A stretch of DNA of 64,000 nt from Octopus vulgaris (lineage: Eukaryota). Below the pieces are notes generated by a model. That model saw nothing but the letters and a program-made list of their open reading frames with translations, was not told where the DNA came from and did not search any database. Below, piece after piece: positions 12,886-50,949 of this stretch. Each line of letters starts with the position of its first letter. The first letter of the stretch is position 1. A program made the position numbers and the translations under genes. The DNA is taken from NCBI GenBank assembly GCA_951406725.2, contig OX597825.1, forward strand, positions 64,294,001 to 64,358,000. The letters run 5' to 3'.

Positions 12886-13189
12886 AAATTTATTATATAT
12901 ATTAGTAGAGATTACACTACTGAAAGGAATGTTATACCAGTCCATGTTATTATTCCTATTATTCTTATGTCTCTGGAAGCGGATCCTATCATCCCTGGTA
13001 CTATTTCCCGAACATCGAGTTTGATTATTAATTACGATTTCATTATCGGTATTTATGTTATTATTAGAATCGGCCCCGTTCTTTTCATTTAAGTTCTTGT
13101 AATGTTTTTTTATTAATCAATTAAAAGAAGCCACTTGAAATAGCTGTAATGTATTGACACCTGTACATTTTTCTTACTTATATATATAT

Positions 13190-13363
13190 ATATATATACG
13201 TCGTGCTACTTTCAGTTTCTGTCTACCAAGGTCATTCACAAAGCTTTGGTCGACCCGAGGCTATGTTAGAGGACGATTGCCCAAGGTTCCCCGCAGTGGA
13301 ATTGAACCCGGAACGATGTGGTTAGGAAGCAAGCTTCTTAGCACACAACCACTTCTGTGCCTT
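13190..13363 (-). mobile_element. SINE family A 5' half (duplicated at 9140-9316)
   Basis: Reverse complement of the family A head, with private substitutions shared with 9140-9316. Confidence 0.85.
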
Positions 13364-15099
13364 TATAAATAGGAATTTATGGAGGTTTCGAAGCAGTCAT
13401 TTATAGTTGTACTCTTTACCTATGTATCAGACAAATATTGACATAACAGGGTTGTTAACTTTCCAGATTTTTTTTTTATTCTTGAGATTGATGTCTTTTT
13501 CCCACTCTCCATCGGTATCAAATGACTACAATCGATTGAAAGCCGAGTAAATTCCAATCAATCAAATCAATTTGCATATACACACACGCGTACACACACA
13601 TATCTACACGCTCACACACATACGAATACACACGCTCACATACACACAAGCATGTATACATATATGTCTGTCAATGCTGTTGTGTGAAATTACATGACTC
13701 AGTACCAATGTTATTACTGGATTCTTTTGGTTATACATAATTATAACGTCATAAAAGAAATCAAAGGTGTGCTATTAAGCAGCTTTACCTTAATTGCTAG
13801 ACATTAGTGACAGCAATGAAGTGTACAAACATAGTTGTTCCCTTGAATGCTGCATATACCTTGTGGATTTATTACATTTACGATTTTTCCAACAAATTAC
13901 TCGAATAGTGATATTGATGTGTACCAAATAAAACTAGCTCACTGCGTGTGCGTCTGAGGGTTTGAGTGTGTATGTGTATAAACATGAACTTGTGTGCACG
14001 CTAGTGTGTGTTTGTGTGTGTCTAACGCACGCTTGTATGTGTAAATATTATTTCTGTGTGAAGGACTGTACGTGCCTAAATGATTTTTAATATTCACATT
14101 GCTACTTTAGTGGTTTTTCTTTCGCCTTTATTTTTCTGAGTTTAGTTTCCGATTTGGTTTACTTTGACTCTCCTTTTTTAGACTCTCATTCTTTAGACAC
14201 CGAGGTTGAGCTAATATACTTACCCAGCCCCATGAAATTTTGGGGCTTGTACTAAAATTTGAAACCCGTATTCATATAGCTATTCACTGGATATATTCTA
14301 TATAGGAACAGCGAGTGACCTATATTTCTGTCTGTATGTATGTATGCACACATGTATATATGTATCTGAATACCTTATTTATATATGTATCTATATGTAC
14401 ATGCACACACACACTGATATATATATATATATATAAATACATATATTAATAAATTTATTTATATATACATACATATATTAATAAATTTATTTATATATAC
14501 ATACATATATATATACCTACATTCATATATGTGTGTATATACATCTGTATATATATATATATGTGTGTGTGTGTGTGCTAACATGTATGTATATGTGTAT
14601 ATATGCATATATATATGTGTGTGTGTTGGTGTGTGTGTCTGTGTGTCTGAGTATTTCTGTGTGAGTATGTATTGATAAAGCTGTTTATAGAAATAACTTC
14701 ACACATTCACAATATTCAAAGAAAAATATTCTAAAATTCATTAGCTATTTCAAAAAATATATCTAGAAAACAATGTATCACCAAATAGTCATTTCGTACA
14801 TTCTTCCACTTGTTTCAGTTATTAGACTGCGGCCATACTGTGGCATCACCTTGAAGAATTTTACTCGAATTTGTATAAGATTAGTACTTATTCTATCGAT
14901 TGCTTTTTACATTTCGATTACTTTTTTACATTTAGCTAATTTTGACCCACGTGATTGTATAGCGCTTTAGGGCACAGACTAAATGCTTGTTATTTGACAG
15001 CAAACAGGTGGAATCTTCTTAGCCTTCCACCGACAATAAGCACACTTGCCATTTATTGGGATAGTTGCAGCAACCTACTCTTGTTGTGCAATTCATGCG

Positions 15100-15153
<54 letters not shown>

Positions 15154-15356
15154 ATATTTCGGAATGGTCATATTGCCAGTTTAGCCAATTATATATATAT
15201 AATTTATGTGAAATAGAAAGATGAATAATCTTGTAGTAGATTAATCAAAAGTTTAACCGATACCTTGGTAGCAAAAATCACAGCAGAAGACAGCACGGTT
15301 GGAGGTACAACCATATGGTGTTGCAACCGTGCGTTGGTGCGGATAATTGAATTTTA

Positions 15357-15873
15357 ATATTATTAGTGAATTGAAGAAATAGAGCTGAACGAAGATTGAA
15401 CAGAAATCGTTTTATTTCATTCTACACGTGTTTCGAAAGGCACAATTTACCAAAATCCGATTGAATAATGAGACTATATTGTGTATTTCTCTTCAGGAAG
15501 AAATAGGAAATCCGTTGGAAAAAACAAAAACAGAACAGAGGCGGAGCAAAACAAATCGAACTAGGCTCCTAAGAGCCCATGGCCAAACTGTTTATCAGTG
15601 TATGTTGAGAACGGGTGGTGGGTGCGTTGAAGATTTTAACGGGTCAGGCAGCGGTCATTCCTGTGGCTGAGGGCACGGGGTGTGTAGACGTTCTTTGTGA
15701 CCGAGAGTAAAGTTCTGACTATTTAAAGAATATTGGATGTATTATATGGGGCGAGCAAAATCTACTTAGAGACATGTGTGTGTTTACTGTTCTATATATG
15801 TGTGCTGGCGCAAGTTGGTAAGAAGCGCTATTTTCTGGTCACTGCTGATACCTCCGTCCAGGGGTAGAAAACA
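15357..15873 (-). repeat. Left inverted arm (pairs with 17072-17584)
   Basis: Direct comparison shows a few substitutions and one small indel. The same 80-aa spurious ORF is called on both arms. Confidence 0.97.
15414..15504 (-). ncRNA. Minimal type I hammerhead ribozyme, inverted copy
   Basis: Reverse complement of 17436-17526 with the core intact. Confidence 0.85.
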
Positions 15874-16760
15874 CTAAAAACCTCGCCCAGATAATCGCCT
15901 CCCATAATAATAGGCTGCTTACTAAGACCCTATCACCTTTTTCCGGAAGCACAGCTTCTTCCGCTCCCGGTTTAATGCTCAGTAGGAATAATAATAGTAG
16001 TAATAATGATATGAGAGCCAGTAAAGTGAATCATAATCTCAGCTCCAACCAGGGATTATATACTAGGGGTATAGTTATAAATAGGGGTGTTGTAGTTGAC
16101 GGTAACAATGGCAGTAGTGAGGTGAGCGCAGCTCGGCTCGTTAGGGTAGAGAGTCCCATTAGCAACCCCAGCATCGTTTCCGGCAATAGCAGCACCACGG
16201 GCACTAGCAATGACAGTACTCTGATAGATAGTGGAGAACCAGGGGTTATTCCGTTAGTTAATAGTGACGTAGTGGAAAATAAAGTAGTAAGCGGCTGCAG
16301 TTCTCGCAACAAATATAGTGACAGTAACGCAGTTCTAATTTCAGAAACTAATCCTAGCAGAATAAGATTCACGTCGGCGAACTCCAAGATCAGAAACGCC
16401 GTCTACCAATGCAAGGTTTACACGGACTCAGATGTCTACGCTTATGTAGGGGCCTCATCGCCAAGATTGGCTTTACGAATCTCCAACCATTACGCAACTT
16501 TTCGAGACATGAATAAACGCCAGACCACGGGACTCAGCAAGCTAATATGGCGATTGAAGAATACGAACTCAAGCTACAGGCTGGAATGGTCAATTTTGTC
16601 GGTGGCCCTCCCATTTGATAGGGGCAGAAGGAAGTGCAACCTTTGTGTCTCCGAACTCTTCCATATATTGTTCGCCAGAGACCGGATGGCAAACGGACTT
16701 TTACAGTCGGCTTTTCGATGCCCCCATTGGCGGCGTTATACTTATCTTGCTTATAAATAA
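15873..16760 (+). CDS. C-terminal part of a Penelope-like polyprotein: Asn/Ser-rich linker plus GIY-YIG endonuclease (RT lost by 5' truncation)
   Basis: Motifs VYQC..YVG..RISNH..F..TGLSKLIWRLK..LEWSIL..A.PF..CNLCVSE..CPH. The frame stays open upstream of ATG 15975 (TKNLAQIIASHNNRLL, resembling the PLE N-xx-II-xx-HN-xx-L motif) up to the inversion junction. Confidence 0.85.
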   Translation, partial: TKNLAQIIASHNNRLLTKTLSPFSGSTASSAPGLMLSRNNNSSNNDMRASKVNHNLSSNQGLYTRGIVINRGVVVDGNNGSSEVSAARLVRVESPISNPSIVSGNSSTTGTSNDSTLIDSGEPGVIPLVNSDVVENKVVSGCSSRNKYSDSNAVLISETNPSRIRFTSANSKIRNAVYQCKVYTDSDVYAYVGASSPRLALRISNHYATFRDMNKRQTTGLSKLIWRLKNTNSSYRLEWSILSVALPFDRGRRKCNLCVSELFHILFARDRMANGLLQSAFRCPHWRRYTYLAYK

Positions 16761-17435
16761 CGCTTATATATAATACCTGCACCCGGTTACACTACTTATA
16801 TGAAAATAGCCCTTGGTAATAAATTCTGAAAAAGGCCTTTAAGAGAAATATGATTAACCACTGCAAGGGGAATTACTCCTGTGAGATGAATGGGGCTTTG
16901 TTTTTGACGACGGGGGGGTTTCTTTGACAAGGCATGATTAGACGAACACACGCACACATAAAACATAAAATATTTTTCTGCCGCCCGACGGTTCTTACTG
17001 CAGTGACCATTGTGTAGAGCTGTTTAACAACTGACAGCCGCGCGATCAAACGCACACACGTACACAAAAAATGTTTTCTACCACGGAGGTCTCAGCAGTG
17101 ACCAGAAAATAGCGCTTCTTACCAACTTGCGCCAGCACACATATATAGAACAGTAAACACACACATGTCTCTAAGTAGATTTTGCTCGCCCCATATAATA
17201 CATCCAATATTCTTTAAATAGTCAGAACTTTACTCTCGGTCACAAAGAACGTCTACACACCCCGTGCCCTCAGCCACAGGAATGACCGCTGCCTGACCCG
17301 TTAAAATCTTCAACGCACCCACCACCCGTTCTCAACATACACTGATAAACAGTTTGGCCATGGGCTCTTAGGAGCCTAGTTCGATTTGTTTTGCTCCGCC
17401 TCTGTTCTGTTTTTGTTTTTTCCAACGGATTTCCT

Positions 17436-17526
17436 ATTTCTTCCTGAAGAGAAATACACAATATGGTCTCATTATTCAATCGGATTTTGGTAAATTGTGC
17501 CTTTCGAAACACGTGTAGAATGAAAT
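17436..17526 (+). ncRNA. Minimal type I hammerhead ribozyme in the 3' pseudo-LTR
   Basis: atttcttc-CTGAAGA-stem II (GAAATACACAAT/ATTGTGCCTTTC)-GAAA-C-ACGT-GTA-gaatgaaat. Stem III loop is palindromic; AATAAA follows. Confidence 0.85.
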
Positions 17527-17575
17527 AAAACGATTTCTGTTCAATCTTCGTTCAGCTCCATTTTTTCAATTCACT

Positions 17576-17664
<89 letters not shown>

Positions 17665-18410: not shown

Positions 18411-18441
<31 letters not shown>

Positions 18442-18445
<4 letters not shown>

Positions 18446-18847
18446 AGGAGTTGCTGTGTGGTAAGTAGCTTCTCTAACAACCACATGGTTCCGGGTTCAG
18501 TCCCACTGCGTGGCACCTTGGGCAAGTGTCTTCTACTATAGCCTCGGGCCGACCAAAGCCTTGTGAGTGGATTTGGTAGACGGAAACTGAAAGAAGCCCG
18601 TCGTATATATGTATATATATATATGCGTGTGTGTGTTTGTGTGTCTGTGTTTGTCCCCTAGCATTGCTTGACAACCGATGCTGGTGTGTTTATGTCCCCG
18701 TCACCTTAGCGGTTCGGCAAACGAGACCGATAGAATAAGTACTGGGCTTACAAAAGAATAAGTCCCGGGGTCGAGTTGCTCGATTAAAGGCGGTGCTCCA
18801 GCATGGCCGCAGTCAAATGACTGAAACAAGTAAAAGAGAATAAAAGA

Positions 18848-30660: not shown

Positions 30661-31726
30661 ATATAGAAATAGTAAACGTAAATCATAATTTTTCGTGTGG
30701 ATGGTATTTTTGTAATGTCCGTTCTAAAAACAATTCTACATTTTTATTCCAAATATTCAAAATAATTTATACGTTATTTCGAGAGTATTCAAACACTACT
30801 CGGGTGAATGCAATGACATCTATGTTCCACTGATGAGGGCACATATGGTTTAAAAAAATCAGGAATTGTTAAGCGCTCGTCTTAAAATAAAATTATATTA
30901 CCATTCCCTATTAGCCTTTTTTTTTTTTCATTCAGTCACTCCTTGCTTCTATTTCTGTTATAAATTATCCATGTAATACATACGTTAACATTAAATTAAC
31001 AATTCTACACTCAAACTTCAGCTGACCTGGATGTTGACAATTGATCTTACATTAAATTGCGACATAAAAATTGTCGAAATATCACTACTATATCAGTTTG
31101 TCACAGCTAAAAGGTTATATATTTTCGTCTGGGATGGTGTGTAATTCTTAGATTGGCCTTAGGTTAGTCTGTTAGACTGGATTTAATATTGTCATTCTAG
31201 TAATGACGCCAGACGAAAATTAAGCAAGTCTGCAAATGTGAGGACATTTTTAGAAAATAACAAGACATATCTTATATTTATTATGGAATTATATCATAAG
31301 CAATAATTATACTTGATGCCTTTCCCTGCTACCGTTGTTGATGTCGCCGAACTTACATAAGAAGCAATTACATTATTTAATTCATTGTTCTTATTAAATG
31401 TTATATTTGACAATATGTGTCTGCACCATTGAAATTACGTCATCTGCTTTTTCTACAGAATATGTCATATGTCTGGATGGGCATTGCTGGTTTAGTGCTA
31501 TGACGAATATGTTTAGTTTGTCATTAGGGGTGGAATTGAATGCAATTTCATTAGATAAAAACAGAAGTTAAGTTTTCGTCTGAAGTTATATTCATTATTG
31601 TCTCTGATCTAATAAAAATCAAGCTATAATACTAAGGATTCATATCGTAAACGCATAGTTAAATAGCCTTTATCCATGCCATATGTTCAAATGAAATAGG
31701 TGTATTACATTTCTTTATAGAGTATA

Positions 31727-32133
31727 GGCGTAGGAGTGGCTGTGTGGTAAGTAGCTTACTTACGAACCACATGGCTTCGGGTTCAGTCCAACTGCGTGGC
31801 ACCTTGAGCAAGTGTCTTCTACTATAGCCTCGGGTCGACCAAAGCCTTGTGAGTGGATTTGGTAGACGGAAACTGAAAGAAGCCCGTCGTATATATGTAT
31901 ATGTGTGTGAGTGTGTATCTGTTTGTGCGTCTGTGTTTGACTCTTCCCAACATCGCTTGACAATCGATGCTGGTGTGCATACGTCCCCGTAATCTAGCGG
32001 TTCGACAAAAGAGACCGATAGAAAAAGTACTATGCTTACAAAGAATAAGTCCTGGCGTCGATTTGCTCGACTAAAGGCGGCGCTCCAGCATGGCCACAGT
32101 CAAATGACTGAAGCAAATAAAAGAGTAAAAGAG
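31727..32133 (+). mobile_element. SINE family A
   Basis: Homology to the other copies. Confidence 0.92.
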
Positions 32134-50466: not shown

Positions 50467-50501
<35 letters not shown>

Positions 50502-50508
<7 letters not shown>

Positions 50509-50621
50509 TATAAGTTTATGAACGAATGGAGTTGAACGACTTGTTAACAAATTTCCTTTATTTTCGACATATGTTTCGAAGGCTGCATATTCCTAATTCT
50601 TTCATAAACTTATATTTTTAA
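50502..50621 (-). repeat. Short fold-back PLE end with half a hammerhead
   Basis: 21-bp perfect arms 50502-50522 / 50601-50621 next to (TA)n; minus-strand GAAAC-ATAT-GTC then AATAAA at ~50556-50577. Confidence 0.7.
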
Positions 50622-50906
50622 AATAAACATACAAATTTCCGCACGAAAGCACGTAGTCTATGCCCTAGGGACGTAACTTCAACCGTGTTCTTTCTGATGT
50701 GAATTTGCTACCCAGGTATCGGTTATCTTTCGAATTATCCTTAATAATAATTCATTCAACTATCAAATATATCAGCCGTTTTTTCTCTAACTCCGGGATC
50801 TCATGTTTCCGAAAGAGCTCCGCTCGATATATCCCTGCTTCCATTTCCTGATATAATAATAATACTAATTGTTCCCTTGTTGTTGTTTTTTGTTTCCCGT
50901 TTGGAT

Positions 50907-50949
<43 letters not shown>

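What the first reader, a model, noticed from the sequence alone, without database searches (positions are those of the whole stretch)
15357..17584. GIY-YIG cassette enclosed by ~515-bp inverted arms, each with an intact hammerhead
Seen: near-identical arms (young insertion), an uninterrupted 261-aa ATG-started endonuclease ORF, and hammerheads facing outward on both strands. Any read-through transcript from either strand would form a long dsRNA stem and carry one sense ribozyme. Inference: the RT was removed by truncation, but the locus could still express a stand-alone endonuclease or be remobilised in trans.
Basis: partly seen in the sequence, partly recalled or inferred. Interest (0 to 1): 0.7.

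Follow-up and report, generated by a model that had tools for sequence, protein, structure and literature searches.

The report
Truncated Penelope-like retroelement with inverted arm
This is a young, 5'-cut and likely dead copy of a very abundant Penelope-like jumping gene, probably from an octopus, whose endonuclease half, inverted arms and two hammerhead motifs match the already published way these elements land in TA repeats, so it is mostly ordinary.

Summary
The anatomy is real. Arms 15357-15873 and 17072-17583 differ by 4 substitutions and one 5-bp indel, each carries a type I hammerhead core, and a GIY-YIG frame lies between them. It is not a stand-alone cassette. The frame is the C-terminal half of a reverse transcriptase-endonuclease polyprotein, cut at 15870 in the RT thumb. 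Six contigs of one run continue upstream in frame, and an Octopus sinensis relative (P0151) has RT at that position. The family is high-copy, and nine other arm-to-body joints lie at scattered places, one contig each. A 5'-truncated copy with an inverted partial copy in (TA)n is the published Penelope-like insertion form; Penelope-13_HM has hammerheads on both strands. The ATG is internal and unconserved, and read-through would bury the ribozyme in a 500-bp duplex. Two small extras remain. The element runs about 155 bp further left than reported, a one-sided tail much longer than the usual 30-40 bp and repeated by a second copy at 50.5 kb. The octopus-linked sub-lineage has also lost the Hydra-clade CxCX5C zinc knuckle, yet still sits in (TA)n.

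The parts
15202..15356 (-).
   Evidence: Family-level contig cover like that of the arm; one X16 contig spans 15322-15468; 20 X2 contigs run into TATA at 15190; 73% match to the second copy at 50619-50739
15190..15201 (.). (TA)6 at the left end of the insertion
15357..15873 (-). Inverted, 5'-truncated partial copy of the element's 3' end (left arm)
15423..15496 (-). Type I hammerhead motif of the left arm
15870..15873 (.). Inversion and truncation junction with 4-nt microhomology (AACA)
   Evidence: Arm ends at 15873; family ORF letters join at 15870 (loose ends of X3)
15870..16760 (+). C-terminal half of the RT-endonuclease ORF: end of RT thumb, about 140-aa Ser/Asn-rich disordered linker, GIY-YIG endonuclease with CxxC and CxH, no CxCX5C knuckle
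15975..15977 (+). First ATG; an internal linker codon, not a conserved start
16761..17071 (+). 3' UTR part not duplicated; holds the first unit of an imperfect repeat (about 16935-17010, second unit about 17040-17115)
17072..17583 (+). 3' end of the sense copy (right arm, pseudo-LTR region), ending 66 nt after the predicted cut site
17444..17517 (+). Type I hammerhead motif of the sense copy; predicted cut after GUA 17515-17517
17581..17658 (.). (TA)39 target microsatellite at the right end

Best explanation
This is a 5'-truncated, likely dead-on-arrival insertion of a high-copy Penelope-like retroelement (C-terminal GIY-YIG, Hydra-like) joined head to head with an inverted partial copy of its own 3' end, in a TA microsatellite. 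Shown: the arms, the microhomology junction, TA runs at both ends, the in-frame continuation into the RT thumb in other copies, and scattered joints of the same type. Inferred mechanism: the protein of an autonomous copy nicked both strands of a (TA)n target. It primed one cDNA 66 nt past the hammerhead, which stopped in the RT thumb. It primed a second cDNA about 220 nt past the hammerhead from the other DNA end, which stopped after about 670 nt. The two incomplete cDNAs were joined through 4 nt of microhomology. The two hammerheads and the enclosed endonuclease frame are by-products of where the two cDNAs stopped.
For: (1) Six X3 contigs continue before 15870 with letters that read HKVRIAFS in frame. 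P0151, named Octopus sinensis, has YRDD RT, then HKVRIAFS-NTKNL, the same linker and the same endonuclease start, 48% identical over 231 aa. 4 of the 5 phmmer hits of 400 aa or more carry an RT YxDD motif. (2) 3007, 7319, 2828 and 147 contigs from 4 of 4 laid runs fall on 15155-17071, over arm, ORF and extension alike. (3) Nine other joints from extension or arm to body lie at different places, each in one contig of one run (tables 5 and 5c). (4) The arms share 10 of 11 listed differences from other family contigs, so they come from one source. (5) Published form: an inverted 5'-truncated copy at the 5' end, a one-sided tail and (TA)n targets (PMC8557442, passages and sections 11, 12, 15). Penelope-13_HM has an inverted copy of 966 nt and a hammerhead on each strand (supplement). 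A purified Penelope protein cuts and extends both strands and starts at two internal RNA sites that define the tail (PMC11167929). (6) A diverged second copy at 50490-50947 has the same asymmetry.
Against: The joints rest on 21-28 letters on the short side, at 88% likeness, and the tool warns that such joints can come from repeats. No listed piece (32 shown, 13,371 not shown) spans the 15873 junction, so its copy number is untested. No whole genome was held, so no full-length copy was seen as DNA, and the empty site and target duplication could not be checked. The two-primer mechanism is inferred; self-priming on an antisense template has also been proposed for such structures (PMC3846280, passages). 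The frame is still open and none of 22 listed differences hits a conserved catalytic position.
Confidence: 0.9

Rival explanations
1. The unit is a non-autonomous endonuclease-only sub-family with terminal inverted arms, copied as a whole by the RT of autonomous relatives.
For: Both strands keep a hammerhead and 3' end; cis pLTR sequences sufficed for trans mobilisation of a host gene in Adineta vaga (PMC3846280, passage); another joint (15732 to about 9 nt upstream of 15870) truncates the ORF at nearly the same place (table 5c); the frame is open.
Against: The other joints are scattered and each seen once; six contigs run on into the RT thumb at 15870; the near-coincident joint has a different arm length. 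Read-through RNA would fold back on itself.
Confidence: 0.05
2. The locus expresses, or is being domesticated as, a stand-alone 261-aa GIY-YIG nuclease.
For: Uninterrupted ATG-started frame with the conserved Y, Y, G, R, H, E and N positions; confident predicted fold for residues about 170-280; AATAAA at 16818.
Against: The ATG is not conserved and has 10 upstream ATGs; the first half of the product is predicted disordered linker; 15 of 22 listed differences from family contigs are non-synonymous, giving no sign of purifying selection (only 40 of 113 rows were shown); youth alone explains the open frame.
Confidence: 0.03
3. The inverted arm is an assembly or library fold-back artefact.
For: Repeat-rich region; no listed contig spans the junction.
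Against: The arms differ by 4 substitutions and a 5-bp indel, enclose 1.2 kb of non-mirrored sequence, and the left one carries 155 nt of extra family sequence; the same form occurs at 50.5 kb and in other contigs.
Confidence: 0.02

Closest known systems
Insertion unit of endonuclease-bearing Penelope-like elements (Craig et al. 2021, PMC8557442, Fig. 2 legend; Arkhipova et al. 2013, PMC3846280)
   Same: 5' truncation, inverted truncated copy at the 5' end, hammerhead near the 3' end, tail on one side only, microsatellite target, Asn-rich insert between RT and endonuclease.
   Different: The one-sided extension is about 155 nt here and about 280 nt in the 50.5-kb copy, against 30-40 bp published.
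Hydra clade of Penelope-like elements, especially Penelope-13_HM and Hydra-1_Obim (PMC8557442 section 11 and supplement)
   Same: C-terminal GIY-YIG without CCHH, CxxC and CxH around the conserved E and N, similar thumb motif, type I hammerhead about 70-230 nt from the ends, (TA)n target; Penelope-13_HM has the inverted copy and hammerheads on both strands.
   Different: The CxCX5C linker, present in 9 of 9 Hydra rows of the published alignment text, is replaced by a Cys-free motif. The hammerhead has a much longer stem II and differs from that of Hydra-1_Obim, so this is another family; four short DNA motifs and one peptide motif from it were not found in that supplement.
Poseidon element PAc of Anolis (Frangieh et al. 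2024, PMC11167929)
   Same: Works like it, by inference: AT-rich target, both strands used, two internal RT start sites giving two different ends.
   Different: Different clade; the two ends lie about 155 nt apart here, not 30-40; nothing was assayed here.
Minimal type I hammerheads of metazoan Penelope-like elements (Cervera and de la Pena 2014, PMC4209133)
   Same: Short stem I, G10.1-C11.1 pair, palindromic unstable stem III that predicts dimer-only activity.
   Different: Stem II insert of 55 nt; the two copies here are on opposite strands, so no cis dimer is possible.

Membership tests
Endonuclease-bearing Penelope-like elements | GIY-YIG endonuclease C-terminal to RT in one ORF | tested here: met
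   Fold matches I-TevI Z 9.2 and T4 EndoII Z 8.8; in-frame RT-thumb letters upstream in 6 contigs; RT-linker-endonuclease order in P0151. The RT itself is absent from this copy.
Endonuclease-bearing Penelope-like elements | Type I hammerhead in the terminal repeat | tested here: met
   (sequence and structure only; Rfam gave no hit)
Endonuclease-bearing Penelope-like elements | 5' truncation with adjacent inverted partial copy and a one-sided tail | tested here: met
   the tail is longer than published
Endonuclease-bearing Penelope-like elements | Direct pseudo-LTRs flanking a full-length ORF | not testable with these tools
   No genome held; metagenome scans found nothing
Hydra clade | No CCHH motif in the endonuclease | tested here: met
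   Cys at 143, 181, 256, 259, 284 and His at 12, 55, 207, 265, 286 of the 296-aa query; it aligns without insert to Hydra-type proteins
Hydra clade | CxxC and CxH flanking the conserved E and N | tested here: met
   CNLCVSE...MAN...RCPH; CxxCxxE in 136 of 150 hits
Hydra clade | CxCX5C zinc-knuckle linker before the endonuclease | tested here: not met
   Absent here and in P0151, P0003, P0002, P0001 and P0015, which form one branch (100/99) among 38 rows; the other 32 rows have it. Hence filed as Hydra-like, not as a strict member.
Hydra clade | DKT and RWK motifs and placement by RT phylogeny | tested here: inconclusive
   RT N-terminus missing here and in P0151; distant hits P0022 and P0153 show DKT; no named Hydra sequence could be put in the tree
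Hydra clade | Insertion into (TA)n | tested here: met
   (TA)6 left and (TA)39 right; second copy (TA)6 and (TA)18; 20 X2 contigs end in TATA at 15190. The genome is TA-rich and no enrichment test was run.
Non-autonomous endonuclease-only family | Multiple copies sharing one junction | tested here: inconclusive
   Other joints are scattered singletons, but contigs spanning 15873 would not be listed as joints
Non-LTR retrozymes | Non-coding tandem units each with a type I hammerhead (bioRxiv 10.64898/2026.07.22.740005, part 1 of 5 read) | tested here: not met
   The repeats are inverted, not tandem, and enclose coding sequence

The most novel reading that the evidence does not exclude
Octopuses carry a very successful Hydra-derived Penelope-like lineage that has discarded the CxCX5C zinc knuckle proposed to direct microsatellite targeting, yet still inserts in (TA)n. 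It primes its two cDNA ends at two fixed RNA sites 155-280 nt apart, the far site always on the inverted side. That would make the linker dispensable for targeting and give an unusually wide natural record of two-ended priming.
Probability: 0.45. Interest if true: 0.4.

Novelty: new member of a known kind. Interest (0 to 1): 0.2.

Why it matters
As given, it matters little: it is a clean example of a published insertion form. The family is the useful part. Craig et al. link the linker zinc finger to microsatellite targeting (sections 11 and 15); a high-copy lineage without it is a natural test of that idea. The long one-sided extension would let genome-wide counts test whether the two DNA ends use different priming sites. 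Many such fold-back insertions could also be a source of double-stranded RNA in a cephalopod, which was not tested here.

Tried and rejected
Whole genome: none held. Pfam: 0 families for the ORF; only weak GIY-YIG hits in 5 of 18 relatives, one reaching the cut-off. Rfam: 0 matches. Word-based protein searches with the window ORF found nothing; phmmer found 2482 proteins at E up to 0.001. Foldseek gave no match at E up to 0.001, although its top rows were GIY-YIG enzymes. Metagenome scans: 0 hits for a 22-nt pattern; 0 confirmed of 586 candidates for P0151. Expression: no RNA holder listed. One run guessed to be RNA (X16) had 147 family-level contigs and says nothing about this locus. A second structured RNA in the extension: folding z-scores -1.6, -2.1, -0.6 and +1.1 for the two copies and strands, not convincing. 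Target-site duplication: not discernible in TA runs. Earlier notes on this genome or sequence: none. Literature searches for this family or for a knuckle-less Hydra lineage (passages of PMC13282606, which never names Hydra or hammerheads) found no description; the library lacks most subscription papers and Repbase. Rejected: homing-endonuclease or DNA-transposon cassette, since the frame continues into an RT thumb and the arms are copies of a retroelement 3' end.

Full report
Observation. The window is AT-rich, microsatellite-laden animal DNA. The closest named relatives of the ORF are Octopus sinensis proteins, so the host is likely an octopus (inference). The arms are as described: 15357-15873 and 17072-17583, with 4 substitutions in 501 nt and one 5-nt indel. 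Each holds a type I hammerhead core, at 17444-17517 (+) and 15496-15423 (-). These are the only 2 hits of my descriptor in the window, against 0.005 per shuffled window (descriptor written after seeing the motif). Rfam does not detect them and the hammerhead is not the lowest-energy fold. The frame 15849-16760 is open and the first ATG (15975) gives 261 aa. Pfam is silent. An AlphaFold model built on a 12-sequence alignment has a confident domain at about residues 170-280 and a disordered first half; it matches I-TevI (Z 9.2, rmsd 2.3, 89 residues) and T4 EndoII (Z 8.8), with further GIY-YIG proteins at ranks 4, 6 and 7 (family labels partly recalled).

The ORF is half of a polyprotein. phmmer with the last 138 aa gave 2482 hits, of which 150 were listed. 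Of the 5 listed hits of 400 aa or more, 4 carry an RT YxDD motif; the fifth is a spurious repeat protein. P0151 (544 aa, O. sinensis) has RT, thumb, then HKVRIAFS-NTKNL, a Ser/Asn-rich linker and the endonuclease start, 48% identical to the window frame over 231 aa from 15870 on. Six contigs of run X3 continue before 15870 with letters that read HKVRIAFS in frame. The copy is therefore cut inside the RT thumb. The arm ends at 15873 and the ORF letters begin at 15870, a 4-nt microhomology. The ATG at 15975 falls in the linker, is not a Met in P0151, and has 10 ATGs upstream of it within the element.

The family is large and the joints are scattered. 3007, 7319, 2828 and 147 contigs were laid from the four runs (depth is not a copy number). 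Of 8 listed skip joints, 7 link the extension or left arm to the ORF and 1 lies within the arm; 2 more arm-to-body joints appear in table 5c. Each of the 9 is at a different place and in one contig of one run. This is the pattern expected if inverted arm and truncation point vary per insertion. Caveats: where reported, the short sides are 21-28 letters, and contigs spanning this locus's own junction would not be listed as joints; none of the 32 pieces shown spans it (13,371 more were not shown). The two arms share 10 of 11 listed differences from other family contigs, so they derive from one source and their 0.8% divergence marks a young event. Of 22 listed ORF differences, 15 are non-synonymous, none makes a stop and none hits a conserved catalytic position (40 of 113 rows were shown).

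The element is longer than reported. Sequence 15202-15356 is covered like the arm, one contig spans 15322-15468, and 20 contigs of X2 run into TATA at 15190. The right end lies 66 nt past the predicted cut site, in (TA)39; the left end lies 222 nt past it, in (TA)6. A diverged second copy at 50490-50947 repeats the layout: a sense 3' end of about 110 nt with half a hammerhead ending at the homologous position in TA, a 31-bp inverted arm, and an extension of about 280 nt that is 73% like 15239-15362 and ends in (TA)18. That is two cases, not a genome-wide count.

Mechanism. Shown: the anatomy, the truncation, the microhomology, the TA ends and the family context. From papers: Penelope-like insertions are often 5'-truncated with an inverted truncated copy at the 5' end and a 30-40-bp tail on one side (PMC8557442; abstract, passages, sections 11, 12, 15 and supplement parts 2 and 58 plus searches). 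Penelope-13_HM is listed there with a 966-nt inverted copy and a hammerhead on each strand. A purified Poseidon protein cuts and extends both strands of AT-rich DNA and starts at two internal RNA sites that define the tail; hammerhead cleavage was not needed and appeared only with protein (PMC11167929, parts 1-2 of 4). Inferred: two target ends primed two cDNAs at +66 and about +220, both stopped early, and they were joined by microhomology. Self-priming on an antisense RNA is a published alternative (PMC3846280, passages), which also reports Asn-rich inserts between RT and endonuclease and trans mobilisation by pseudo-LTRs.

A read-through RNA would form an arm-arm duplex of about -967 kcal/mol, which would bury the single sense hammerhead. 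Its stem III is the palindrome ACACGUGU, the type reported to need a second sense copy (PMC4209133, passages). Cis cleavage at this locus is therefore unlikely (inference). A stand-alone nuclease lacks support, and trans remobilisation stays possible but unshown. Expression was not testable.

Classification. All testable features of endonuclease-bearing Penelope-like elements are met. The protein is of Hydra type: no CCHH, CxxC and CxH around E and N, matching thumb, hammerhead and (TA)n target. One defining feature fails: the CxCX5C linker, present in 9 of 9 Hydra rows of the published alignment text including Hydra-1_Obim and in 51 of 78 hits with enough upstream sequence (several of the other 27 look like frameshifted fragments). 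The window protein and 5 relatives (3 named O. sinensis, 2 unnamed) replace it with a Cys-free motif and form one branch (100/99) in an endonuclease-only tree of 38 rows, where the other 32 keep the knuckle. Rows were 17 of 18 hand-picked proteins (P0012 failed the motif filter), 20 further long homologues that passed the filter, and the window; no named Hydra sequence was included. I therefore call it Hydra-like. My searches (and passages of PMC13282606) found no description of this sub-lineage; Repbase and most subscription papers were not searchable.

Verdict. This is an ordinary, likely dead insertion in a published form, from an apparently undescribed family with two modest peculiarities. 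Earlier notes of this scan on other genomes reached similar readings for such fold-backs; they are unchecked and are not used as support. Interest 0.2.

Noticed in passing
window 50490-50947: Second, diverged copy of a related sub-family on the minus strand: about 110-nt 3' end with half a hammerhead, 31-bp inverted arm, about 280-nt extension, TA runs at both ends.
   Followed up: partly
window 15155-15189: 35-bp end of another high-copy repeat wedged between two TA runs just left of the element; 32, 56 and 5 contigs continue with other letters at 15188-15189. Family not identified; two motifs from it were not in the Craig et al. supplement.
   Followed up: partly
window 15285-15335 and 50645-50695: The extension holds an 8-nt palindrome at the same aligned place in both copies but with different letters (CCATATGG and CCCTAGGG); folding support is weak.
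   Followed up: partly
window 16935-17115: Two imperfect copies of a roughly 75-nt unit about 105 nt apart in the 3' UTR; the inverted arm stops inside the second unit.
   Followed up: no
proteins P0009, P0157, P0163: Other long-linker Hydra-type proteins with Asn-rich inserts; P0009 (Argonauta hians) and P0157 keep the zinc knuckle and branch next to the knuckle-less group with moderate support (94/87).
   Followed up: partly
window 13176-13380, 18422-18623, 31723-31912: Copies of another dispersed repeat of about 200 bp, about 80% alike, in opposite orientations on either side of the finding.
   Followed up: no
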